A stretch of 64,000 nucleotides of DNA from positions 1-64,000 of the forward strand of contig JBHLPW010000022.1 of NCBI GenBank assembly GCA_048939015.1. The letters are read 5' to 3'. Positions 13,715-58,640 of the stretch are shown here, piece by piece. The stretch comes from Promethearchaeota archaeon. GTDB lineage: Archaea > Asgardarchaeota > Lokiarchaeia > Sigyniarchaeales > SOKP01. The notes under the pieces were generated by a model. The model was given only the letters and a program-made list of their open reading frames with translations, did no database searches and had not been told where the DNA came from. Position 1 is the first letter of the stretch, and every line of letters begins with the position of its first letter. The position numbers and the translations under genes are program-made.

Positions 13715-14161
13715 TTGAAGGAACTCTACGAAATTGGCTTTGTATTCCGGGGATTCGTACTAGTTAGTCATATTTTTAAAGGATTACCTGTTCAGAAAGA
13801 AGGAGGCGTAAATAAAGATTTAAGAGGTGCATTCATTTCTGCAATTAACACATTTGTACACACCGCCTTTAATAAAAGTTCATTAGAATATTTAGAATCA
13901 GGGAATATCTTATTTATCTTCAAATTAGCTGAAGTTCAATCAATAGATAATAAGTATAAAGAACCAATAATATTATATGGATTAGTTGATAAGAGTAAAA
14001 AAAAATCTGATAAATTGGTAAGAAAATTTTTTGAAAAAGTTGATCCTATACTTCAAATGTTTATTCAAAAATATAATGGAGTAGATTTCACTGAATTAAA
14101 TCAATTTGAGTATTTTATTGAAACTATATCAGATTTCTTTATAAAAAAGCCTCAAGCTTAA
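13715..14161 (+). CDS. longin-like (profilin-like fold) domain protein
   Basis: beta-beta-alpha-beta pattern EIGFVFRGFVLVSH / DLRGAFISAINTFVHTAF / SLEYLESGNILFIFK / ILYGLVD, typical of Asgard longin-like proteins. Confidence 0.6.
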   Translation: MKELYEIGFVFRGFVLVSHIFKGLPVQKEGGVNKDLRGAFISAINTFVHTAFNKSSLEYLESGNILFIFKLAEVQSIDNKYKEPIILYGLVDKSKKKSDKLVRKFFEKVDPILQMFIQKYNGVDFTELNQFEYFIETISDFFIKKPQA

Positions 14162-14162
14162 T

Positions 14163-15833
14163 TTATTCTACTAAACTCCAACCCTTAGGCTTAGAACGAG
14201 AATATTGAATTTTCCCTTGATCTTTTAATAAAGCAATTTCTTTTTCAATTTGAATATTAGAGAATCCCATTTCTTTAATATCATTAACGAATTGAGCTTT
14301 AGTTTCAACAGTTTTTTTATTTCTTAGATACCCGATAATAGTTTCTTCTAATGATCCTTTAACGCTAACAGATTCTTTAGAGATTGGTTTTTGGGTCTCA
14401 ATTTCAAGTGCTGCTCGTAATTTTTCCTTTTTTGGCTCAACTGATTTTTCAATGACCAATGGTTGTACTTTAGGTTTTGGTTGTTCCTTTACAACTACTT
14501 CAGCTTTAACTTCTTCAGGAATTTCTTTATGTAATTCTTCTTCAGGTAAACTCCAAATCGGGTATGAAACCTTCTCATAGACAACTGACTTTTGTGTTTT
14601 AAGAAGTGTAAATTCCTCTAATATTTCATCTTCAGAAAATCCTAGTTCTAATAAATCTTTCATTAAGTCTTTTAGATTTCCTTTTTCTTGTAAAATGTTA
14701 AAGATTTGTCCTCTCATATTTGTTGGAATATCTTCTATTTCAGCTATCTGATTTATTAAGTCATCCTTTCTGGCTACTTGTTTTTCTGGTATTTGAATCT
14801 TTTGAGGAATATCAAGTGTTTCTTTTTGGCCCCATTCAAAATCAGTTACGTTTCTAATTCTTCGATCATATCCTCCAAATATAATTTGATTTAGTTTTTG
14901 CCCATTTCCTGAAATACAGCATACTTTTTTAATAGATGATGCTACCTTAGTTTTCCATTTTAAGTCAAATTCCTGAGAATTTAATGCTTGATTATGGAAG
15001 ACTTTTAATGAACCATCAGCACACCCTGCTACAATTTCTTTTGCCATATCGCCATCTATATCTTCAATTAATAACGATACTGGACGACCTTCATCAATTT
15101 CAATTTCTTTAATAATTTCTCCATTACTATTTAGAATCTTAATGAATGAGTCATCAGTGGCTAATATTATCTCATTAAATCCATCATTAGTGACATCTCC
15201 GATTTTGATATCATTAATTTGAGTATTGAAATTGCTTTGCCAGGTGATATCTGGCATACCATCCTTAAATTGAATAAGTTGAAGAGTTCCATTTTTTGTT
15301 CCAATTAATAACACAAAAACAGGTACCTTTTCATCTGGGAACTTTAGGAATCCTAATGTACAAGAAATAACCCAGGAATCATAATAGAACACATATTTTG
15401 GCTCTTTTGCTTTGATGTCATCGAATATTCTAACTGTTTTGTCTTCACTCCCGAAAATTATTTCAATATTTCCATCTTGAGTAAAATCTCCCGCGATACA
15501 ACAATTTATCCTCTTAGAGGATTTGTATCGCATTAATCCTGCCAATTTCTTCTTTTCTACATTTAATTTCATAACCATAAAATTTCCATCACCAGCACCT
15601 ACTAATATCTCATCACATCCATCTCCATCTAGATCAACGGGAAATGTGCAACGACACCATCCATCGAAAGCTCGATCATCAAGAATATTATTTTCACTAT
15701 CCATCAGGTAAAGAGTCTTATCATGTCCACCAAAAATAAGAAATTTTTCACTTCTACAGTTTAATATTGAGCAAGTTAATACAGCGTCTGGACACTCAAA
15801 CATCCAATTTAACTGATAACGTTTTCTTAACAT
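14163..15833 (-). CDS. cytoplasmic FG-GAP/WD-like beta-propeller protein (BBS2/ITFG2-like) with C-terminal winged helix
   Basis: Repeats DLDGDGCDEILVG, GDFTQDGNIEIIFGSED, GDVTNDGFNEIIL, DIDGDMAKEIVAG; GGHD/GGYD blade ends; no signal peptide; C-terminal wHTH-like segment ...LLKDQGKIQYSRSKPKGWSL. Confidence 0.75.
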   Translation of the reverse strand: MLRKRYQLNWMFECPDAVLTCSILNCRSEKFLIFGGHDKTLYLMDSENNILDDRAFDGWCRCTFPVDLDGDGCDEILVGAGDGNFMVMKLNVEKKKLAGLMRYKSSKRINCCIAGDFTQDGNIEIIFGSEDKTVRIFDDIKAKEPKYVFYYDSWVISCTLGFLKFPDEKVPVFVLLIGTKNGTLQLIQFKDGMPDITWQSNFNTQINDIKIGDVTNDGFNEIILATDDSFIKILNSNGEIIKEIEIDEGRPVSLLIEDIDGDMAKEIVAGCADGSLKVFHNQALNSQEFDLKWKTKVASSIKKVCCISGNGQKLNQIIFGGYDRRIRNVTDFEWGQKETLDIPQKIQIPEKQVARKDDLINQIAEIEDIPTNMRGQIFNILQEKGNLKDLMKDLLELGFSEDEILEEFTLLKTQKSVVYEKVSYPIWSLPEEELHKEIPEEVKAEVVVKEQPKPKVQPLVIEKSVEPKKEKLRAALEIETQKPISKESVSVKGSLEETIIGYLRNKKTVETKAQFVNDIKEMGFSNIQIEKEIALLKDQGKIQYSRSKPKGWSLVE

Positions 15834-15979: not shown

Positions 15980-18151
15980 TTAAAGTGCTAATTGGGCATC
16001 ACTTGGGCTATATTTTCCTTTACCGTTTATCTCATATGTGATTTCTAAACTGTCTCCTACTTCTAAAAGGTCAATATCCCATTTTAACGTATCCTGACCT
16101 ACTTCATCAGTGATTTCTGGAGTCATAGAATAGGATCCGTACTCAAATGAATCTGGAACCTTATCTAACATCACTAATTTTCTTAATGGGGATTCACCTA
16201 TGTTTTCTAAAGTTAATATAATCTTGTAGTTTCCTAGGTCTCCAATTGGTACAACTTCCTTTCCAATTCTGAATTTCCTTCTGATGTGCATAGCCTCAAT
16301 TACAGGAACTTCTGGCTTGAATTCTAATTCTTGACTTATTGGAAAAGTATTAGCGAGATATGTGATGTCAGATTCAAAAGTGGATTGTCGAGCAGGGTTT
16401 GTACAATGAATAGGATATTCAAATTCCATTGTAGATTCTGGCATAAACATACCAGTACTGCTGTCTTTTAAATCCCTAAGATCTATTTTGAATTCATTAT
16501 TCTCTACACTAACTGCTGCTGTAGCTACTTCTACTTCTTCTCCATCCCAAGTTAATTTTATCTCATCAGCTTTAGGTGGTTGATATTCATCTGAGAAAGT
16601 TTGGTGAATAACGGTTACTTCATTAAGAGGAGCTGAACCATTATTAACAACCTTCAAAGTTGCAATAACATCTTTAGCTCGATATGTTGGAACTTCAGTT
16701 ATATCATAAGACATTACACCAGTTATACTACCAATCTCTAAGATTACATCCTCAAGAGCAGCGGTTCCATTTACAATTGTTTGAAAATCGGGCATTACTC
16801 TAAATTCTAATTTCTTCCTAAAGGTAGGGTATTCCTCACTTTCATATTCCCACTTTGTTGAATGCCACTGCGCACCGCTTGGAAGTAAGGGAACATCGTT
16901 TGGATCAATATCGACAAACTTTTTTGATTCATCTTCAGGAGCATATACATCGGCATTAAAAAGTTGTATAATAAACTCCGAAGAGTTATCAAAGACAAGT
17001 TTACAATCGAATATCCCAGGTTCTTCATCTCTTTCAACTGTATCAACGTAAAACTTGTTTCTAGTATAAGCATCAAATTTTTCAATATCAAGTCCCTCAG
17101 CAAAGGATGAATGACTCTCGTATGTGATCTCTACAGTACCTGTTCGTCTTTTAGTGATATCAGAAACCATTATATTACATGTAAATTTCATCATCACTGT
17201 ATATTCTGGAGCTAATTTATCAATTGTCCAGATTATTTGATTACCTTCAATATTAGCTCTTCCTTCAGTAGTGGTCGAAATCACTGGATTAGTAAAATCA
17301 CTTGGAATATTTTTTACTACTTTTATATTGGATACGGGTTTATCAAACATACTTCTGAGTGCAACCGCAAAATGAACAACATTTTCTTTATCAATCGATA
17401 TCCCATAGGACTCTAAACTAGATTCAACAAGTGTACCTCCATCACTCCAAGTTTCACCTGATATTTCCTCTTCTTCCTCCTCTTCTTCTTCCTCTTCTTC
17501 TATTTCTGGTTCATTATTAGAAGGCTTAGAAGGTTTAGAAGGTTTACCAGAAACCGCACTTTTTTTATCCTTTAGCTTTATTATGTCTTTCTCGATATCA
17601 TTAATGTTTAAAACATCATCAGCATTTGGATTTGTATTAATGTATTCTTTAACCAGAAGTAAATTTTTTATATCCTTTGTTATTTTAAAATTTCTTGAAT
17701 CAACATTATCAGGTTCTTCAGTACCTAATTCTTGAATTGAAATGTCTTTTGTTTTTAAATCTGTACTTCCAATATTTTCTAGTGAAACATCGATATCCCA
17801 TAATCTATCAACAGTACTAGGATTTTCAATATTGAATTTACCACTATGAGCAAAAGATGTTACACGCCCATTATGATCTTGCTCCACGTCTACAGATTCA
17901 ATTATTTTAACTAAAGCTAGTAATCCTTCTCTATTACCATTTTTTAATACGATGCTTCCTTCGAGTTTCCCCGTGTCTTCATCATAGGTTTCAATAACAG
18001 GAGTAGATGTATCTCGATCCATTAATTCGACACGACCTGTATCCATATCCTTTCTTTTCAGTGCCTCAGCGACAATCTCTTCTTCAGCTTCTTCTTTACC
18101 CCAGCCCATGCGTGATGTCGTTTCTTTCTTTTTCTTATCTTTTTTACCCAT
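15980..18151 (-). CDS. cytoplasmic multi-beta-sandwich protein with an AP mu-homology-like domain plus three Ig-like (DUF11/appendage-like) domains
   Basis: aa ~79-365 collinear with AP mu C-terminal domain blocks (see findings); polybasic N-terminus, no signal peptide or TM; KPS x3 and poly-E insert. Confidence 0.65.
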   Translation of the reverse strand: MGKKDKKKKETTSRMGWGKEEAEEEIVAEALKRKDMDTGRVELMDRDTSTPVIETYDEDTGKLEGSIVLKNGNREGLLALVKIIESVDVEQDHNGRVTSFAHSGKFNIENPSTVDRLWDIDVSLENIGSTDLKTKDISIQELGTEEPDNVDSRNFKITKDIKNLLLVKEYINTNPNADDVLNINDIEKDIIKLKDKKSAVSGKPSKPSKPSNNEPEIEEEEEEEEEEEEISGETWSDGGTLVESSLESYGISIDKENVVHFAVALRSMFDKPVSNIKVVKNIPSDFTNPVISTTTEGRANIEGNQIIWTIDKLAPEYTVMMKFTCNIMVSDITKRRTGTVEITYESHSSFAEGLDIEKFDAYTRNKFYVDTVERDEEPGIFDCKLVFDNSSEFIIQLFNADVYAPEDESKKFVDIDPNDVPLLPSGAQWHSTKWEYESEEYPTFRKKLEFRVMPDFQTIVNGTAALEDVILEIGSITGVMSYDITEVPTYRAKDVIATLKVVNNGSAPLNEVTVIHQTFSDEYQPPKADEIKLTWDGEEVEVATAAVSVENNEFKIDLRDLKDSSTGMFMPESTMEFEYPIHCTNPARQSTFESDITYLANTFPISQELEFKPEVPVIEAMHIRRKFRIGKEVVPIGDLGNYKIILTLENIGESPLRKLVMLDKVPDSFEYGSYSMTPEITDEVGQDTLKWDIDLLEVGDSLEITYEINGKGKYSPSDAQLAL

Positions 18152-22832: not shown

Positions 22833-23816
22833 TTATATTATTTCCTTAATCATAGACCTTTTAATTTTTTCTTCAATATCAAAATTTTCTATATTTCTAA
22901 GAATTCTGTTATATTCAAATTTTGTGCTGCTAGTTAAATTCATATATTTCTCTCCAAAGATGTCATCTATATTACTATTGAAATGTTTTGAATGTAAGAT
23001 TGAATGACAATTAGAGCATAAACAGATACATTTTTCGATTTTTAATAATTCAGAAATTTTTCTTATACTAAATCTTGAAATTTTGTCCCATTTTATTACT
23101 GCTTTTTTCTTAGATGGAAAAACATGGTGGAAACCAAGTGAAGGTAAATTAGTTTGCACCGTTACATTTTCACATCCAATGCATTTTCCACCATAAAATT
23201 GTTCAATAATATATCTTTTCTTAATCCATTTTTTAATTTGGTATTTAGCTTTAGATTTATAATATTTATTCTTATCTAGCTTATTCGTTATATTAGGATT
23301 ATTATCAATGAAAGCATTAATCATATTATTTAATTCCTCTAGTGTATGAAGGAATAAAGAAGAGTGAAGGATTAATGGTTTAAATGTATTGTAATTATTC
23401 GATTCTGTTAGGATATGACAATTCTTACATAAAACAATTACATTATCATTATTCAGGAGTACTACAGTATCCTCATAACTTTTTACTCTTAGAGACTTCC
23501 AAGAGTGTGATTTAGATTTTGGATTGGGATGGTGAAATTCCAAAGCAGGAAGTATTGAAACATTTTTTTTACATTTTAAGCATTCTCCGTTATAATTTTC
23601 TGAAATTATTTTCAGTTTTTTTTTAAGATTTTTTGTCAAATAAAGATCTTTACGACAATTCTCACAAATTGATCCAAGACGCCCTTGTCTTTTGCTGAAT
23701 TTGTTATGAACCTTTATTTGATGACAAATACCACATTCTTTTCTTACACCATCGTTATATAATCTTTGTCGGGTTTCTTTTGCCATTTTTTTTTGATTTT
23801 TATTTATTTCTTTCAT
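22833..23816 (-). CDS. tandem double-HNH endonuclease-like protein with N-terminal zinc finger
   Basis: CGIC..CENC finger, then two modules CLKC..LEFHH..VLCKNCH and CIGC..LGFHH..CLCSNCH. Confidence 0.75.
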   Translation of the reverse strand: MKEINKNQKKMAKETRQRLYNDGVRKECGICHQIKVHNKFSKRQGRLGSICENCRKDLYLTKNLKKKLKIISENYNGECLKCKKNVSILPALEFHHPNPKSKSHSWKSLRVKSYEDTVVLLNNDNVIVLCKNCHILTESNNYNTFKPLILHSSLFLHTLEELNNMINAFIDNNPNITNKLDKNKYYKSKAKYQIKKWIKKRYIIEQFYGGKCIGCENVTVQTNLPSLGFHHVFPSKKKAVIKWDKISRFSIRKISELLKIEKCICLCSNCHSILHSKHFNSNIDDIFGEKYMNLTSSTKFEYNRILRNIENFDIEEKIKRSMIKEII

Positions 23817-49450: not shown

Positions 49451-49634
49451 AATTCAAAATATAATAATGAAATTTAACTAATAAAACAATATAGAAATTA
49501 TAAAGATTCATTATTACAAATAGTAATTAAGAAATAATATTTTTTTTAAAGGTTATAAGTTATAAATAGGTAACTGTGAATTCTAAATATAATTAAATTG
49601 TATAGTTAAGAACAAAAAACGGTTGGAATTCAAT

Positions 49635-52600
49635 ATGAAATTATTTAATAAAAAACAAATTTTATCATGTGTTTTACTCTCAACTATTTTACTTTCCTTT
49701 TTACCAAGTTTACATTCATCTTTTTTATTTAGTAATAGTATACAAAAAGAGATTAGTGAAATAGAAATCAATCCGAACAGATATGATTCTTCTGAAACCT
49801 TTGTATGTACCTTGAACGGTAAAGAGTATTTAGCAAAATATATTTCTCAAGAAGATGTAGAAGTTATGAAAACATCGTCTGATCTCAAAGAAGAAAATAA
49901 AAATTATAATAATATTATCGATGGTCATGGTACGGGTTTATGCGCACCTACAAAAGAGGATTTAGAAAAACTTATCGGTAAAATTTCGATTATTGGCACA
50001 TTACCAGAATCAGAACCCCACAAACCTCAAGCTGCTCAAGATCTTTCAAGTGATGTTTCTTTTCCATCCGTTGGTAATCAAGGGGCTCAAGGATCATGCG
50101 CGGCATGGGCCTTGACATATTATTGTTATGGATATTTAGAGGCAAAAGATCACGGATGGAGTGCTAGTTCAGGAAATCCTGACTACTTAATGAGCCCTGC
50201 ATGGACTTTTAATAAAGTTACTACTACTTCAGGTTCTTGGATGACTGATAATGCTCAAATAATTGTAGATTGGGGCTGTGCAACGATGTCGGCAATGCCT
50301 TATGATGATTCTGATGTCAATAGTTGGGGAAGTGAGACTGCATGGAGAGAAGCGCCCTATCATAGGGCTTATGATTATTATCTCATAGATTTTAATGAAT
50401 TCAATCCAAACGCAACCATTGATGTCATCAAAAATATGATAGTAAATGGTACTCCGGTTACTTTTGCCATGGACTCTTCTCAGTTTACTTCAGGGTTTTC
50501 TGATGGTAATTATATTATATCCTCTTCAGAATATGATTCGTTAATTTTAGATCATGCTCAAACTATTGTTGGTTTTGATGATAGTGAATCTGATGACGGA
50601 AATGTTGGGGCTTTTCGGGTAGTAAATTCATGGGGTTCATCATGGGGAGATAACGGTTATTATTGGTTAACATATGAAACTTTAAAAGAAATAGGTTTTG
50701 CTTTGGGTGATTTCGGACTTCATTTATGTGTTATTGAGGATCGAATAGATTATGTTCCTAGTTTAATTGCCACTTGGGAGTTTGATCCTGCCCCTACTCG
50801 TATGAATAATCTTATTACATTAGGAGTAGGCCCTCATAGTTCCCCATTAGCTTCTAAGACTCCTTGGTATTATTATGATGATGTATATTCACTTCCAGAG
50901 TTTATGACTTTTGATATTTCTGATTTTCAAACATATTATGATGAAGATAATGATGTTTTCTTTCTTCTAGACGTAGGGAGCTCAACTATAACTGGTACAT
51001 TATCTTCATTCAAAGTTGAAAGATATAATATTACTGGGATTTTAGAAGAAACAACTCCAGAATCTCCGATGGTTCCTATGTTGACTCCAGGATATGTACA
51101 CGCAACATTTATGGATATAGATCATGAACTGGAGGTCGAGCTTGATGTTCCTAGTATGGTTGATATTAATACTACATGTATTATTAATGCTACAGTGATT
51201 AATAATGGAATTTATGCAGAATCTAGTGTTGATTTATTTCTATATCTTGATGGAATCCTTTTCAATTCAACCACAATTCCAATTTTACTAGCAGGTCATA
51301 ATGAGACTATAAATTATTCTTGGACACCATTTGAATGTGGAAATCATAATTTCACGGTTTATGCACCTCCAATAATGGGGGAATATTACATTATAAACAA
51401 TTTCTTTAGTACGATTAGCACTGTAAGATTAAAAATCTTTTCCGATGATTTTGAAAGTGGGTTATCTAACTGGGAATCTATTACAGGTTTGTGGCATTTA
51501 ACAGATGATAGTAGTTCATGGACAGACCCATATCATTCTCCAACTCATTCGATGTGGTTTGGAGATGAATCTACAGGAACTTATAATACAGGAGACCTAG
51601 AAATGGGTGATTTTATATCTATTCCAATAGATTTACACGGATACCTCAATGCTAAATTAGAATTTTATCATTGGAGAGAAAGTGAAGCCGATATTGATTG
51701 GGATAAATCAATTGTTTATATCTCAGTAGATGGCACTAATTGGGATCTTTTATATCAAAATGATGTTTCGTATATAGCACCTTGGGAGAAAATAACCGTA
51801 GATATTTCTGCTTATATTGGAAAGACTATTCAATTAAAGTTTTATTTTGACACAGGTGATAACCTAAATAATGACTTTAGAGGCTGGCTTATCGATGATA
51901 TTGTAATTTATTCATTAGGTCCGATTTATCATGATTTACAAGTTTCTTTAAATGTTTCAAATTTCCCTAAAATTGGTATGCCTTATCAAATTAATTCCAC
52001 TGTAATAAATAATGGATTAAATAATGAATCTAATGTTGATTTTTTCTTGTATTTAGATGGTTTACCTGTATTTTCAACGACAATTTTAAATATTACTGTA
52101 GGAAATAGTAAAACTTTTTGCTATAATTGGACCCCTACTGAGTATGGTTTATACAATTTCACCGCTTACATTCCTCCAATACTTGATGAAACATTTCTTG
52201 ATAATAATCATTTCACCAAAATGATACCTCTTTATGAATTGAAAAATTATACTATGACAACTGGTTTTATATATGATTGGATTGATGCTTCTGGAGGAAG
52301 TGAATTAATTTTATCTGATGATGGATATTCTACTGCATCTCTACCGTTTACTTTTCAATTCTATAATCAATCTTTTTCAACTATATATATTGGTGCAAAT
52401 GGATATCTTAGTTTTATTGATTCAGCTCCCTCCCAGTATAGTAATTCTCCATTCCCTTCAAATGATAGTTTGCATAGTTATATGATTGCTCCATTTTGGG
52501 ATGATTTATATCCTCCTGAAGGGCATATCTATATAGAATCATTTGCGGATTATTGGGTTTTGGAATGGCAAAATATAACTCATTGGTCTGATCCTCTTGT

Positions 52601-53480
52601 TGGTTCCTTTGAAGTAGTTCTATATAAGACAGGTGAAATAATTTTTAACTATGATTATATTAATTATACTAGCGGGGGATATACTTGTGGATTAAATTTA
52701 GGTTTGGACACAAAGTATTATAATTCATACCAAGGATTAAATGATTCTACTGAAGATTTTTCGATATTATTTGCATATGATATGCTCCCAAACTCTTTTG
52801 ATTTATCCACAAATGCGGTTATTCCTTCTGATGATGATGGTATGTTTGATTTAGAATGGACGGAATCTTTCCTGGCGAACAATTATTCTGTATATCAATA
52901 TTCTAAGTATATAACAGAAATTAATGAGAGTTTAACAATATTGAGAGAAGATACAAATGATTTACAAATACATTTAGAAGGATATTCTGATGGAACTTAT
53001 TATTTTATTGTAGTTGCTGAGAATAATTATGGTAAAACAAAATCAAACTGCATTGAAGTGATTATTATTCAACAACCTCCAGAATCATTTACACTAGTTA
53101 CTGATGCAGATACTCCATATGATAACGATGGTGCATTTAATCTCTCCTGGACTGAATCTAATAGAGCAGATAGTTATAATGTTTATCAATATACCAAATA
53201 TATAACGACAATTAATGAGAGCTTAACTTTGATTGCTGAAGAAATTACCGATCAAGAACTTGCTTTAAGTAGCTATGGAAATGGGAGATATTATTTTATT
53301 GTAGTTGCTGAGAATGAAGTTGGAAAAACTCTTTCCAACTGTATTTTAGTAATAATACTTCATGAAGGAGGCGGTGGTGGGATACCCGGTTATGAACTGT
53401 TATCTATTATTGGAGTACTAGGAATTTCATTAATAGTTTTAGAGAAAAGAATATCCAAAAAGATTAAGAATAATTATTAA
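49635..53480 (+). CDS. secreted papain-like (C1A) cysteine protease with CARDB-like, MAM/jelly-roll-like and FN3-like domains and a Loki-CTERM tail
   Basis: NQGAQGSCAAW, DHAQTIVG, VNSWG...WGDNGY catalytic motifs; FSDDFESG..GWLIDDI; C-terminal GIPGY-TM-basic. Confidence 0.9.
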   Translation: MKLFNKKQILSCVLLSTILLSFLPSLHSSFLFSNSIQKEISEIEINPNRYDSSETFVCTLNGKEYLAKYISQEDVEVMKTSSDLKEENKNYNNIIDGHGTGLCAPTKEDLEKLIGKISIIGTLPESEPHKPQAAQDLSSDVSFPSVGNQGAQGSCAAWALTYYCYGYLEAKDHGWSASSGNPDYLMSPAWTFNKVTTTSGSWMTDNAQIIVDWGCATMSAMPYDDSDVNSWGSETAWREAPYHRAYDYYLIDFNEFNPNATIDVIKNMIVNGTPVTFAMDSSQFTSGFSDGNYIISSSEYDSLILDHAQTIVGFDDSESDDGNVGAFRVVNSWGSSWGDNGYYWLTYETLKEIGFALGDFGLHLCVIEDRIDYVPSLIATWEFDPAPTRMNNLITLGVGPHSSPLASKTPWYYYDDVYSLPEFMTFDISDFQTYYDEDNDVFFLLDVGSSTITGTLSSFKVERYNITGILEETTPESPMVPMLTPGYVHATFMDIDHELEVELDVPSMVDINTTCIINATVINNGIYAESSVDLFLYLDGILFNSTTIPILLAGHNETINYSWTPFECGNHNFTVYAPPIMGEYYIINNFFSTISTVRLKIFSDDFESGLSNWESITGLWHLTDDSSSWTDPYHSPTHSMWFGDESTGTYNTGDLEMGDFISIPIDLHGYLNAKLEFYHWRESEADIDWDKSIVYISVDGTNWDLLYQNDVSYIAPWEKITVDISAYIGKTIQLKFYFDTGDNLNNDFRGWLIDDIVIYSLGPIYHDLQVSLNVSNFPKIGMPYQINSTVINNGLNNESNVDFFLYLDGLPVFSTTILNITVGNSKTFCYNWTPTEYGLYNFTAYIPPILDETFLDNNHFTKMIPLYELKNYTMTTGFIYDWIDASGGSELILSDDGYSTASLPFTFQFYNQSFSTIYIGANGYLSFIDSAPSQYSNSPFPSNDSLHSYMIAPFWDDLYPPEGHIYIESFADYWVLEWQNITHWSDPLVGSFEVVLYKTGEIIFNYDYINYTSGGYTCGLNLGLDTKYYNSYQGLNDSTEDFSILFAYDMLPNSFDLSTNAVIPSDDDGMFDLEWTESFLANNYSVYQYSKYITEINESLTILREDTNDLQIHLEGYSDGTYYFIVVAENNYGKTKSNCIEVIIIQQPPESFTLVTDADTPYDNDGAFNLSWTESNRADSYNVYQYTKYITTINESLTLIAEEITDQELALSSYGNGRYYFIVVAENEVGKTLSNCILVIILHEGGGGGIPGYELLSIIGVLGISLIVLEKRISKKIKNNY

Positions 53481-53720: not shown

Positions 53721-56700
53721 TTGAATTTCAAAAAAAAAAAGAACAAAATTGTTAAGTTACTGATTTTCTTATTAATGCTATTTTTACCTATGCTCTCTAG
53801 TCAGATAAATTTCACTTTATGGCGTAATTCTAAAATTTTAGATTCAGGTTTTGATCAACTTGAGAATAATTCATGGTTAGATGATGATTTTATGGAGTTA
53901 AAATTTAGCTTCCCTAATCTTTGTATTGAACCTGTATATTCTTATCCTGGAAAAATATTCCATCAAATATCTCTAGAGGGTGGTGGTAATTTAGCTGAAG
54001 TAGGAAATCCTAAATTGCCTTTCAAAACTATTCAAATTCTTTTACCATATGGTAAGGATTTAAAGGATATAGAAGTCCTTAGTGGGAAAGAAGTTGAATT
54101 AGAAGGTAAGTATGAAATAGAGCCTGCACAAAAACAATTACCTATAGGACTAAATGAAACTCCTGAGTTTTATATTAATGAAGAAATATATAGCTCAGAA
54201 TTAAAATTTCCAAATGAAATCTACAATATTGAAGGTATTCATGAATTTAGGGGGTATAGAATACTAATTATTAACATCTTTCCAATTTCATATATTCCAA
54301 AACTGGGAAAAATTACTCATATTGAAGATATATTAATTAACATAGAACTTGTAAATTCTAAAGATGTAAATAAATACTTTCGAGATTCAACTAAAGACGA
54401 AATAGAAATTTTACAACTGGTTGATAATCCAGAAGTGATTGACTCATATACGCAAGAAAAAACAGAAATTCCTTCATTTGATTTACAGCCAGGATCATAT
54501 GATTATTTGATAATTACTAGCAATTCTCTCTTGAATTCTATGGGAACGTATACTTTTCAAGATCTTGCAGCGAGCAAAAATGCCTCTGGTCTCCAAACTC
54601 GAATTGTTACAACTGAGTATATTTATGCTAATTATCCTGGAATTGATGAACAAGAAAAAATTAGAAATTTTATTATAGATGCTTATCAAACGTGGGGGAT
54701 TGAATATGTACTATTAGGAGGTGATGGGGATGCGGTTTCCATCGGAGGTGAAAGTGGTGATGCTATAATCCCTGCTAGAGGTTTGTATGCTACGGCTTAT
54801 GGCTTAGGATTAAATATTAGCTCTGATTTATACTATGCGGGATTGGATGGAAATTGGAATACTGATGGTGATAATATTTGGGGAGAAGAAGATGAAGATG
54901 ATCTATATGCCGAAGTTTACGTAGGGAGAGCTCCTGTAGATTCGGAAGAAGAATTATCTAATTTTATTCATAAAACTTTAATTCATGAGCAAGAAACACA
55001 TTTATATCTTTCGAAAGTATTGATGGTAGGAGAAGATTTAGGATGGTCTGTTTGGGGTGGTGATTATAAAGATGAGGTAAAAAACGGTTCAGATTCATGG
55101 GGATATACAACAATGGGTTTTCCAGCAAGTTATAGTGTAGATACGTTGTACGATCGCGATTTAGATCCAGATAGCTGGGATAAAAATGATATTATTTCCT
55201 TAATTAATGATAATATCCATATCATCAATCATCTCGGTCATTGTGATGTAGAATATGCAATGAAGATGGTGAATCATGATGCTGATTCACTAACAAATAA
55301 TCATTATTTCTTTGGATATAGTCAAGGATGTTATAATGGAGCCTTTGATAATATAGGAGCATACGGATCAACTCATATGAATGATTCAATAGCAGAACAT
55401 TTTGTTACATCTCCTAATGGTGCTTTTGCATTTATTGCAAATAGTAGGTTTGGATGGGGAGATGTTGATGGTACAGACGGTGCCTCTCAATATTACGATC
55501 GTCAATTTTTTGATGCAATATTTGGAGAGGGAATTGAAGAAATTGGGAAAGCTAATCAAGATTCAAAACATGACAATGTCGGATACATCTCTCAAGAAGC
55601 AATGAGGTGGTGTTATTACCAACTTAATCTTTTTGGAGATCCGACAGCAAAACTACCTCCACAACCAAATGATTATGCACCTACACTTATGAATGGTGAT
55701 ATCACACCTTCTACAGGCAATCAAACAACATTATTTAATTATACAGTTGATTACTATGATCAAGACGGTAATCCACCATTACGAATTGATGTAGTGATAA
55801 ATGGTAAAAATTATCCTATGTCTAAAGTAAATCCCTTGGATGAAAATTATACAGATGGATGTGATTATTATTTTACAACATATTTGCAGCCAGGAAGTTA
55901 TGATTATTATTTTGAATGCGAGGATTATAAGTTCTCATATAGTACTTCTACTTATTTCGGTCCAACAGTATTGGAAAAGCCAAATGAGAATTCACCAACA
56001 CTAACTGATGGTCAGGTACACCCCTATAAGGGGTTATATAACCAAACAAGCTTTAGTTATACTATCAATTATACTGATCTTGATAATAATGCTCCCGAAT
56101 ATATAACTGTCACAATAAATTCTACTACTTTTTCAATGGAAAAACAAGATTCTATTGACAGTAATTATATGGATGGGTGTTTATTTCTTTTTGAGACGAC
56201 TTTAGAACATATAGGACTTTATGAATATTATTTTAATTGCTCTGATGGAACCAATCCTGCATCTGATGGAATAAATTTAGGTCCAAACACAATAGAAACA
56301 CCTCTATTTGAGGGAATGTTTATAAAGCATGTACTTAACTTAACTGGTACAACTTATGATTCTGAATTTTCATATGAGTTTGATTCTGGAAGTTTATTTA
56401 ACGTTAAATGGAATATAAGTTCATATATTGGAACCTGGAAAGTAGATTCCTTAAATAGGATAATGTCTGATGCATCAGGTGCTTTACATTTTGGCAATGG
56501 ATACCATACACCAGTATGGATTTTTACAAATGTATCGTTAGGAGATACGGTTTTAATCGCAGTGGATGGAGAAGGCGATCATATTTTTAACATAACTAAT
56601 GAGTTAGAATATGTTTTACCAAATTTTGGTAAAGTTGGGATCTGGGTCTTAGAAGATTTAACAACACCAGGAGGTATTGCTTGGTATGAAAAAAGCACTG

Positions 56701-58640
56701 GAGTTCTCTTAAACGGTTCATTTTTATATTCTGGAGGATCAAATAAGTTAACTTTTGAATTTGTTGATTCAAATAGCCATTTCACTTACTGTCCAAATTT
56801 GGATGTACCCGGGTTAACAAATCACCTGATCTCGTCCCTAACAGGAGATCAAACAACTTTATTCACATTTAATATAACATATATTGATTTAGACAATGAT
56901 TTCCCCATATTCATTAATTTAGTGATTAATGATTCAAAATATCCAATGATGAAAGTTAATGATTTCGATAATTATTACATCGATGGTTGTGATTATACAC
57001 TCGATATATATCTACAACCTGGTACTTATATGTATTATTTCGAATGTAGTGATTGGTCATACTATAATTCTACAGAATATTTCACAGGATTAAATATCAG
57101 TGAAAAAATCAATGAAGATCCACCATTATTAACTGATGGTAAGATAATTCCAAATTATGGTTATGCAAATACTACTTTTTTTACTTATTGGATTAACTAT
57201 ACTGACTTAGATAACAATGTTCCTACATTAATGACAGTTACGATAAATTCTACAATATATTTGATGTACAAACAAAATCCATATGATAATAACTACATGG
57301 ATGGGTGCATCTACATATATGAACACATGTTTGAACAGGAAGGAATATACCAATATTATTTCAACTGTAGTGATGGTTCTATGCAAGATAATTATGGACC
57401 AATCAGTGGTCCATTGGTTAAATATTGTCAATTATTCGATGGATTATATATTAAGCATACTTATGAGGAAAGTGGTTCTAAGTTCGATTCGGAGTTTTCA
57501 TATTCTTACCATTCAGGTGATTTATTTGAAACTACATGGGATATCTATTTATATACTAATACATGGAAAGAAAATGTTACAACACGAATCATGACTGAAT
57601 CAAGTGGAATGGTCTATTTTGGAGATGGATATCACACTCCAATATGGATATATAATAATATCTTTTTAGGAGAGAATGTATTAATTGCTATATATTCCGA
57701 AGGAGACCATATTTTTAATGTAACAGGAGAAACTATATATACCATTCCCCAGGTTGGAAATGTAGAAGCCTGGGTTTTGGAAGATTTAACTGTTCCTGGA
57801 GGTATAGCACTCTATGAGAAAAGTACGGGAGTTTTAATCAATAGCACTTTCTTTTTTAACGGAGGATCAAATTCTTATTCATTTAAATATATTGAATCGA
57901 ATGCAAAGTTTAAGTTTATTGAGATCTTTCATGAACCAGAATTAACATATGGAGAAGTTACTCCAATTGAAGGAACTGAATATACTGAATTTTTATTTTC
58001 TGTTAATTATATTGATCTGGACAATGAAGAACCTACATATATTAATGTTGTTATAAATGGAACTGTTTATTCAATGGCAAAATCAAATCCTGGAGATACA
58101 AATTACATCGATGGGTGTATATACTATTTTTCAACTCATCTTAATCCTTCTACCAACAGTTACTTGTATTATTTTGCCTGCAGTGATGGGCGCTTTGATA
58201 TATCTACGAGTGTATATAATGACTTAATAGTCCATACTTTACAACCACCTAGCAGCTTTACCCTTAGTACTGACGCACTTTCCCCCGATACAGATGGGAT
58301 ATTTAATTTAAATTGGACAGTATCTTCTGGATCAAATAATTACACAGTATATGAGCATGATAATCTTATAACAAAGATTAATGACAGCTTAAGTGTATTA
58401 ACCGTTGAAATTACTGATCTTTCACTTCCCCTGAGTAGTTATTCAAATGGAATTTATTATTTCGTTGTTGTTGCTCATAATGAAGCAGGAAATACGATCT
58501 CGAATTGTGTTCAAGTAACTATAGGCATTTCATCTCCGAGAGGCATCCAGGGATACAATATATTCTTAATAATATTAACAACATTAAGTATATCTATTTT
58601 AATAATCAAAAAATGGAAAACAATACATATAATAAAATAA
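53721..58640 (+). CDS. secreted gingipain-like (C25) cysteine protease with propeptide, repeat stalk and Loki-CTERM tail
   Basis: Propeptide GNPKLP; YLIIT, YVLLGGD, SDLYY, YVGRAPV, catalytic NHLGH and SQGC, LFGDP; GIQGY-TM-basic tail. Confidence 0.9.
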   Translation: MNFKKKKNKIVKLLIFLLMLFLPMLSSQINFTLWRNSKILDSGFDQLENNSWLDDDFMELKFSFPNLCIEPVYSYPGKIFHQISLEGGGNLAEVGNPKLPFKTIQILLPYGKDLKDIEVLSGKEVELEGKYEIEPAQKQLPIGLNETPEFYINEEIYSSELKFPNEIYNIEGIHEFRGYRILIINIFPISYIPKLGKITHIEDILINIELVNSKDVNKYFRDSTKDEIEILQLVDNPEVIDSYTQEKTEIPSFDLQPGSYDYLIITSNSLLNSMGTYTFQDLAASKNASGLQTRIVTTEYIYANYPGIDEQEKIRNFIIDAYQTWGIEYVLLGGDGDAVSIGGESGDAIIPARGLYATAYGLGLNISSDLYYAGLDGNWNTDGDNIWGEEDEDDLYAEVYVGRAPVDSEEELSNFIHKTLIHEQETHLYLSKVLMVGEDLGWSVWGGDYKDEVKNGSDSWGYTTMGFPASYSVDTLYDRDLDPDSWDKNDIISLINDNIHIINHLGHCDVEYAMKMVNHDADSLTNNHYFFGYSQGCYNGAFDNIGAYGSTHMNDSIAEHFVTSPNGAFAFIANSRFGWGDVDGTDGASQYYDRQFFDAIFGEGIEEIGKANQDSKHDNVGYISQEAMRWCYYQLNLFGDPTAKLPPQPNDYAPTLMNGDITPSTGNQTTLFNYTVDYYDQDGNPPLRIDVVINGKNYPMSKVNPLDENYTDGCDYYFTTYLQPGSYDYYFECEDYKFSYSTSTYFGPTVLEKPNENSPTLTDGQVHPYKGLYNQTSFSYTINYTDLDNNAPEYITVTINSTTFSMEKQDSIDSNYMDGCLFLFETTLEHIGLYEYYFNCSDGTNPASDGINLGPNTIETPLFEGMFIKHVLNLTGTTYDSEFSYEFDSGSLFNVKWNISSYIGTWKVDSLNRIMSDASGALHFGNGYHTPVWIFTNVSLGDTVLIAVDGEGDHIFNITNELEYVLPNFGKVGIWVLEDLTTPGGIAWYEKSTGVLLNGSFLYSGGSNKLTFEFVDSNSHFTYCPNLDVPGLTNHLISSLTGDQTTLFTFNITYIDLDNDFPIFINLVINDSKYPMMKVNDFDNYYIDGCDYTLDIYLQPGTYMYYFECSDWSYYNSTEYFTGLNISEKINEDPPLLTDGKIIPNYGYANTTFFTYWINYTDLDNNVPTLMTVTINSTIYLMYKQNPYDNNYMDGCIYIYEHMFEQEGIYQYYFNCSDGSMQDNYGPISGPLVKYCQLFDGLYIKHTYEESGSKFDSEFSYSYHSGDLFETTWDIYLYTNTWKENVTTRIMTESSGMVYFGDGYHTPIWIYNNIFLGENVLIAIYSEGDHIFNVTGETIYTIPQVGNVEAWVLEDLTVPGGIALYEKSTGVLINSTFFFNGGSNSYSFKYIESNAKFKFIEIFHEPELTYGEVTPIEGTEYTEFLFSVNYIDLDNEEPTYINVVINGTVYSMAKSNPGDTNYIDGCIYYFSTHLNPSTNSYLYYFACSDGRFDISTSVYNDLIVHTLQPPSSFTLSTDALSPDTDGIFNLNWTVSSGSNNYTVYEHDNLITKINDSLSVLTVEITDLSLPLSSYSNGIYYFVVVAHNEAGNTISNCVQVTIGISSPRGIQGYNIFLIILTTLSISILIIKKWKTIHIIK

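What the first reader, a model, noticed from the sequence alone, without database searches (positions are those of the whole stretch)
15980..18151. Cytoplasmic protein collinear with the mu-homology domain (MHD) of eukaryotic AP-complex medium subunits
Seen: aa ~79-365 (about 17057-17917) contain four ordered blocks that match the AP-1 mu C-terminal domain as I recall it. (1) LVKIIESVDVEQDHNGRVTSFAHSGKF ~ FLDVIESVNLLVSANGNVLRSEIVGSI. (2) NFKITKDIKNLLLVKEYI ~ SYRLNTHVKPLIWIESVI. (3) VHFAVALRSMFDKPVSNIKVVKNIPSDFTNPVISTTTEGRANIEGNQIIWTIDKLAPEYTVMMKFTC ~ IEYMIKAKSQFKRRSTANNVEIHIPVPNDADSPKFKTTVGSVKWVPENSEIVWSIKSFPGGKEYLMRAHF. (4) VEITYESHSSFAEGLDIEKF ~ ISVKFEIPYFTTSGIQVRYL. An ~80-aa KPS-repeat/poly-Glu insert interrupts the domain, and three further Ig-like sandwiches follow. 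The N-terminus is polybasic (MGKKDKKKK) with no signal peptide. The Asp of the FLDV YxxPhi pocket aligns to Lys, so any cargo specificity would differ. Inference: an MHD fused to appendage-like domains, possibly membrane-recruited through the basic N-terminus. AP-like domains have been reported in Asgard genomes, so novelty rests on this architecture and context.
Basis: partly seen in the sequence, partly recalled or inferred. Interest (0 to 1): 0.85.

Follow-up and report, generated by a model that had tools for sequence, protein, structure and literature searches.

The report
Asgard mu-homology-domain scaffold protein
This Lokiarchaeon protein is predicted to fold like the cargo-binding domain of eukaryotic vesicle adaptors, but it lacks their cargo pocket and belongs to an archaeal family already published as a candidate relative of them.

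Summary
The 723-aa gene is real (minus strand). In a confident model (pLDDT 88) the nine best structural matches are all mu-homology domains (MHDs): Z 14.4-17.9, 210-228 residues. One correction: the MHD spans aa 74-468, not 79-365. An Ig domain (366-453) is nested before its last strand, and only two domains follow: one CnaA-pilin-like, one DUF11/gamma-ear-like. There is no longin, and the YxxPhi pocket is not conserved, so this is not an AP mu subunit. It is not a new discovery: Eme et al. 2023 list an orthologue as a PF00928 candidate, and this scan noted it in many other genomes. What I found no paper for: the family occurs in 244 of 301 Asgard genomes and in Marine Group II. This clade travels with a BBS7/ITFG2-like propeller gene (53 both, 11 neither, of 69 genomes). 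A paralogue sits behind cheA (17 of 17 chemotaxis-cluster genomes in the family, 0 of 55 others). Best reading: a cytoplasmic peptide-binding scaffold reused in several systems, and a plausible sister of eukaryotic MHDs. Function is inferred, not shown.

The parts
15980..18151 (-). Gene for the 723-aa MHD-family protein
   Evidence: model pLDDT 88, pTM 0.75
18125..18151 (-). Polybasic N-terminus (aa 1-9), disordered, no signal peptide
   Evidence: 119 of 120 close homologues have 4 or more K/R in the first 15 aa; pLDDT <50
17933..18124 (-). Clade-specific N-terminal extension (aa 10-73): one helix and short strands
   Evidence: other clades carry HEAT repeats, Pro-rich tails, another small domain or nothing
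17663..17932 (-). MHD subdomain A, first part (aa 74-163); E85, G104 and N110 nearly invariant; K82 at the pocket-Asp position
17114..17662 (-). MHD subdomain B (aa 164-346), itself DUF11-like; conserved E169, K280, W308, G338
17390..17626 (-). Insert in subdomain B (aa 176-254): conserved helix, KPS x3, Glu12
17057..17113 (-). Strand returning to subdomain A (aa 347-365)
16793..17056 (-). Nested Ig domain C (aa 366-453); generic or ApaG-like sandwich
   Evidence: folded alone pLDDT 94.5; best Z 8.0 to ApaG
16748..16792 (-). Last MHD strand (aa 454-468), equivalent to the cargo-binding edge strand of mu2
   Evidence: MHD alignments run to model residue 467-470 and to the C-termini of mu2, mu1, mu4 and delta-COP; natural fusions end at aa ~469-472
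16286..16744 (-). Domain D (aa 470-622), CnaA/pilin-like Ig sandwich
   Evidence: Z up to 14.0, 131-140 aligned, to pilins and adhesins
15983..16285 (-). Domain E (aa 623-723), DUF11/CLIPPER-type sandwich with a weak gamma-adaptin-ear profile match
14163..15833 (-). Linked neighbour: BBS7/BBS2/ITFG2-like FG-GAP beta-propeller (aa 1-335) with a C-terminal extension
   Evidence: Pfam BBS7 propeller E 7e-20; adjacency and co-occurrence
13715..14161 (+). Convergent 148-aa probable longin-fold gene; linked within this family only
   Evidence: 7 of 7 family loci, none of the other-family loci; weak atlas lead to Fuz_longin_1 at score 0.88; fold not tested

Best explanation
A cytoplasmic, non-enzymatic scaffold or adaptor built of five beta-sandwiches. 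Predicted with support: subdomains A and B interlock as a true MHD fold; an extra Ig domain is inserted just before the last MHD strand; a CnaA-like and a DUF11/gamma-ear-like domain follow. Inferred: like eukaryotic MHDs and ear domains, it binds short peptide motifs of partners on exposed sheet edges, but not YxxPhi motifs. Paralogues are given different jobs by their N-terminal modules and partners. This clade uses a polybasic tail to reach the inner membrane face and works with the neighbouring beta-propeller as a two-protein module that organises proteins at the membrane. The family is a plausible archaeal sister of the eukaryotic MHD, which would have lost domains C-E and fused to a longin.
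For: Top nine of 48,161 chains are MHDs: Z 14.4-17.9, rmsd 2.8-3.7, 210-228 aligned, covering the whole domain. Family profile hits mu chains first, while the domain-E profile, also DUF11-like, lists no mu chain. 25 of 41 members hit PF00928 at E<=0.05, and one scanned singly passes the curated cut-off. No signal or TM segment. The propeller gene lies beside this clade's gene in nearly all orthologue loci examined, across two families, with a change of orientation. Among 69 family genomes: 53 have both, 11 neither, 5 one, mostly at contig breaks or in fragmented assemblies. A separate clade is tied to chemotaxis operons, which fits a reusable scaffold.
Against: The protein alone has no PF00928 or PDB sequence hit. 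The sequence signal covers only subdomain B, which is itself DUF11-like. Pocket positions vary across the family. The protein is strongly acidic (pI 4.5), unlike membrane-binding mu2 (own knowledge of mu2). A T-rich run and a TATA-like element between the two genes suggest separate transcription. The genomes are related, so the co-occurrence amounts to only a few independent events. Outside Lokiarchaeales the neighbours are unrelated housekeeping genes.
Confidence: 0.55

Rival explanations
1. A genuine proto-adaptor or coat subunit: MHD protein, propeller and longin assemble into an AP/COPI-like complex that sorts membrane proteins.
For: MHD fold; gamma-ear-like last domain; conserved three-gene cluster within the family; HEAT repeats fused to the core in other Asgard clades.
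Against: The longin gene is convergent and not linked outside the family. The cargo pocket is not conserved. Most Asgard clades and Marine Group II carry the family with unrelated neighbours. Intracytoplasmic vesicles were seen only twice in 'Ca. L. ossiferum' (PMC9834061).
Confidence: 0.15
2. A structural polymer or lattice protein on the cytoplasmic side (filament, baseplate or spacer). The MHD likeness is real ancestry but says nothing about peptide binding.
For: All five domains are DUF11/CnaA-type stalk folds. Buried Lys/acid pairs are conserved, as in CLIPPER domains (10.1101/2025.04.25.650565). The family is usually single-copy and widespread. The cheA-linked paralogue could be an array scaffold.
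Against: Variable N-terminal modules and clade-specific gene partners fit an adaptor better than a uniform polymer. No self-assembly test was run.
Confidence: 0.2
3. A surface or S-layer-like DUF11 protein whose MHD resemblance is convergent.
For: DUF11 is the only Pfam hit that passes. Domain D matches pilins. One distant member has a signal peptide (P0265).
Against: No signal peptide or anchor here, and only one full-length distant member has one. The interlocked topology over 210-228 residues at rmsd under 4 is shared only with MHDs among the listed hits. The profile hits point to mu chains.
Confidence: 0.07

Closest known systems
Asgard Adap_comp_sub (PF00928) candidates of Eme et al. 2023 (PMC10307638, Supplementary Table 3), e.g. 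Lokiarchaeales Bin_204 WJIS010002891_3
   Same: Same family and clade; 85% identity over a 55-aa segment; same basic N-terminus and acidic insert. The authors also note no longin in the same chain.
   Different: They report a Pfam domain hit with sparse distribution. In the passages I read they give no full architecture, nested domain, gene context or non-Asgard members.
MHDs of AP-1 to AP-4 mu subunits, delta-COP, and muniscins (SGIP1, Syp1)
   Same: Interlocked two-sandwich fold over the full domain, Z 13.3-17.9; weak profile similarity.
   Different: 8-16% identity; no N-terminal longin or F-BAR; YxxPhi pocket not conserved; nested Ig domain before the last strand; two extra C-terminal domains; acidic overall.
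DUF11/CLIPPER and CnaA pilin domains
   Same: Subdomain B and domains D and E have this fold or profile.
   Different: No signal peptide; nested rather than purely tandem; no complete Lys-Asp-Asn triad in this protein (domain D has M480/Q517/N601; domain E has K631/D663 with Q720).
Gamma-adaptin ear (GAE) domain
   Same: Best PDB hit of the domain-E profile, E 9e-4.
   Different: Match covers about 70 residues; the ear's Ala-Val-Pro-Lys motif is replaced by Asp-x-x-Pro; no platform subdomain.

Membership tests
Mu-homology domain (fold/superfamily) | Two interlocked beta-sandwiches, B inserted in A, chain returning to A for the last strands | tested here: met
   Nine MHDs rank first, aligned from model 74 to 468 over the whole domain; predicted model, not experimental
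Mu-homology domain (fold/superfamily) | Profile similarity to PF00928 or mu chains | tested here: met
   Met at family level: 25 of 41 members, best E 2e-12; L031 member 40.1 bits against cut-off 31.6; PDB E 3e-4. This protein alone has no hit.
AP-complex mu subunit / delta-COP | N-terminal longin domain in the same chain | tested here: not met
   aa 1-73 is a disordered basic tail, one helix and short strands
AP-complex mu subunit | YxxPhi pocket (mu2 F174, D176, W421, R423; numbering from own knowledge) | tested here: not met
   By end-point register these map to L80, K82, P454, F456, all variable in the family. The register of the last strand assumes no gap.
AP-complex mu subunit / delta-COP | Part of a heterotetramer with two solenoid subunits and a sigma subunit | not testable with these tools
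   No solenoid gene in the conserved neighbourhood; needs co-purification
delta-COP / muniscin MHD | Binding sites for WxW or DPF motifs | not tested
   No residue-level superposition was available
DUF11/CLIPPER surface adhesin | Signal peptide or sorting signal | tested here: not met
   No hydrophobic segment
DUF11/CLIPPER surface adhesin | Lys-Asp-Asn isopeptide triad | tested here: inconclusive
   Family domain D: K 58%, D/E 77%, N 58%, but M/Q/N here. Domain E: K 97%, D 88%, no Asn seen. Distances could not be measured.
Gamma-adaptin ear (GAE) | GAE fold with its peptide-binding motif | tested here: inconclusive
   Partial profile hit, E 9e-4, motif differs; domain E was not folded alone
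Alpha/beta-adaptin appendage | Ig sandwich followed by an alpha/beta platform | tested here: not met
   aa 366-723 is all-beta apart from one short terminal helix

The most novel reading that the evidence does not exclude
The eukaryotic MHD descends from this near-universal Asgard family, which arose by nesting of CLIPPER/DUF11-type Ig domains. In Lokiarchaeales the family works as a membrane-facing adaptor in two systems: this clade with a BBS7/ITFG2-like propeller as a minimal coat-like module, and a paralogue coupling the chemotaxis kinase to a non-archaellar output.
Probability: 0.2. Interest if true: 0.85.

Novelty: new variant of a known kind. Interest (0 to 1): 0.5.

Why it matters
The origin of adaptor cargo-binding domains is open. 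Published evidence for an Asgard mu domain is a weak Pfam hit described as patchy (PMC10307638, PMC12962969). The model supports the full MHD fold, and the searches show a widespread family with one conserved core. That names a concrete protein for structure and binding tests; members occur in the complete 4.36-Mb and 6.04-Mb Lokiarchaeales genomes, whose sizes match the two cultured strains (my identification). The Marine Group II members weaken its status as an Asgard-only signature. The cheA-linked paralogue gives a first functional handle on the family.

Tried and rejected
Single-sequence Pfam and PDB searches gave no mu hit. Foldseek with the full model returned generic multi-Ig proteins with very large rmsd; an AP-2 mu chimera appeared only at rank 48. 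Domain C folded alone found no specific family: best Z 8.0 to ApaG, GAE 6.1, no Foldseek hit at E<=0.001. Complex prediction of aa 62-723 with the propeller returned no answer (runs 0.65, 0.00, 0.29; mark 0.32); this is not evidence either way. No RNA holder was listed; also not evidence. A pattern search with the divergent non-Asgard alignment could not run, and the single-query search found only close Marine Group II relatives, so the range outside Asgard is not measured. No tree with eukaryotic MHDs was built because none was available by reference; the family tree is an unrooted FastTree. Four small (1.3-1.4 Mb) Asgard genomes gave no real match by profile: not found in those searched. Paper searches found no study of this family's architecture or its cheA link; the library is incomplete. 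Rejected: 'three Ig domains after the MHD' (one is nested) and 'longin neighbour as split mu N-terminus' (convergent, linked only within one family).

Full report
Observation. The coordinates hold a 723-aa ORF on the minus strand. Named close homologues are mostly from Promethearchaeota (Lokiarchaeia). There is no signal or TM segment, and the protein is acidic (pI 4.5) apart from its basic tail.

Sequence tests. Alone, the protein hits only DUF11 and nothing useful in the PDB. At family level the signal appears. Of 41 diverse members, 25 hit Adap_comp_sub at E<=0.05 (best 2e-12), and one scanned singly passes the curated cut-off. Family profiles rank AP-3, AP-2 and AP-1 mu and delta-COP first among PDB sequences (best E 3e-4). 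That signal covers subdomain B only. As an internal control, a profile of the C-terminal DUF11-like domain lists no mu chain and hits the gamma-adaptin ear instead (E 9e-4).

Structure. AlphaFold2 with 132 sequences gave pLDDT 88 and pTM 0.75. Against 48,161 chains the first nine hits are all MHDs (AP-2, AP-4, AP-3, delta-COP, AP-1, SGIP1): Z 14.4-17.9, rmsd 2.8-3.7, 210-228 residues. The alignments run from model residue about 74 to 468 and reach the C-termini of the eukaryotic domains. The MHD therefore ends after aa 366-453, a separate Ig sandwich (pLDDT 94.5 alone; best Z 8.0 to ApaG) nested before the last strand. Natural fusion proteins that switch to unrelated tails at aa ~469-472 support this boundary. 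Domain D (470-622) is CnaA/pilin-like (Z 14). Domain E (623-723) is DUF11-type. No platform subdomain is present.

Cargo pocket. By the same end-point register, mu2 F174, W421 and R423 (numbering from own knowledge) fall on L80, P454 and F456. All four positions vary in the family, so YxxPhi binding is unlikely. The invariant residues look structural (E85, N110, E169, K280, W308, K631, N650).

Distribution. A single query matches 244 of 301 Asgard genomes, 232 by my count at E<=1e-10. The shared core is about 590 aa with all five sandwiches. N-termini vary: none, HEAT repeats, another small domain, Pro-rich tails, or the basic tail seen here. Four small genomes of one family gave no real match by profile. 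Full-length members occur in Marine Group II, so the family is not Asgard-only. This genome has three paralogues.

Context. In this clade the next gene is a BBS7/BBS2/ITFG2-like propeller. It is adjacent in nearly all orthologue loci examined, and also in a second family, where it is convergent; in one genome it lies about 7 kb away. Of 69 family genomes, 53 have both genes, 11 neither and 5 one; these are kin, so only a few independent events. The longin-like gene is linked within the family only. A T-rich run and a TATA-like element lie between the two minus-strand genes. A separate clade lies at cheA: directly behind it in 15 of 16 loci checked first (the other shows no cheA in the short flank held), and behind it or one short gene away in four further families or genera. 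Within the family it is present in 17 of 17 genomes with a chemotaxis cluster and 0 of 55 without. The complete 6.04-Mb genome has three che clusters without it, so it is not required for every cluster.

Mechanism. Supported by prediction: MHD fold, nested domain, no export signal, altered pocket. Inferred: a cytoplasmic scaffold that binds peptide motifs on sheet edges, reaches the membrane by its basic tail, and acts with the propeller (0.55). Rivals: structural polymer (0.2), true proto-coat with the longin (0.15), convergent surface protein (0.07).

Prior work. Eme et al. 2023 reported PF00928 in most Asgard phyla, sparsely and not fused to longin. Their table lists an orthologue of this gene. 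A 2026 preprint lists a BBS7/ITFG2 cluster among catalogued Asgard signatures (PMC13734099). This scan noted the protein in 43 windows of 35 genomes, and one follow-up reached a similar verdict.

Verdict. It works like an MHD scaffold and belongs to the MHD fold family, but it is not an AP mu subunit. The protein was already a published candidate; the nested architecture, the breadth of the family and the two context-linked clades are the additions. New variant of a known kind; interest 0.5.

Noticed in passing
L075:2-664 (G000:C108); L045, L077, L088-L102, L106-L109: A paralogue clade (N-terminus MGFK) lies directly or one gene behind cheA and before a conserved ~280-aa unknown gene and a CheW-CheC fusion. 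Within the family it co-occurs exactly with chemotaxis clusters (17/17 against 0/55). No earlier scan note or paper was found for it.
   Followed up: partly
L078-L087: Marine Group II (Thalassarchaeaceae-type) genomes encode the full five-domain core; in L078-L080 it lies just upstream of an EMC3/TMCO1 membrane-insertase gene. Related members have long Pro-rich N-termini.
   Followed up: partly
L052, L053, L057-L059: In two Asgard families the core is fused to N-terminal HEAT repeats, giving a solenoid plus MHD in one chain.
   Followed up: no
L072:8001-9992 (P0265): A distant member has a signal-peptide-like N-terminus and an Rce1-like protease gene next to it: a possibly exported version.
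   Followed up: partly
P0129, P0138, P0267, P0226: Some members keep only the MHD plus nested domain and continue into helical or TPR-like tails; P0226 (1644 aa) carries tandem cores.
   Followed up: no
L074:1483-3609 (G000:C88): Third paralogue: bare core with a C-terminal helical tail and unrelated neighbours.
   Followed up: no
window 14163-14830 (-): The propeller protein's C-terminal ~65 aa look like a winged-helix domain by eye; this tail is absent from the 383-aa relative in L032.
   Followed up: no
window 22833-23816 (-): A 327-aa protein with two Cys/His-rich HNH-like units (weak Pfam HNH_2, E 5e-4) next to an LSm gene.
   Followed up: no
window 49623-53480 (+) and 53721-58640 (+): Two very long ORFs (1285 and 1639 aa), not examined.
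   Followed up: no
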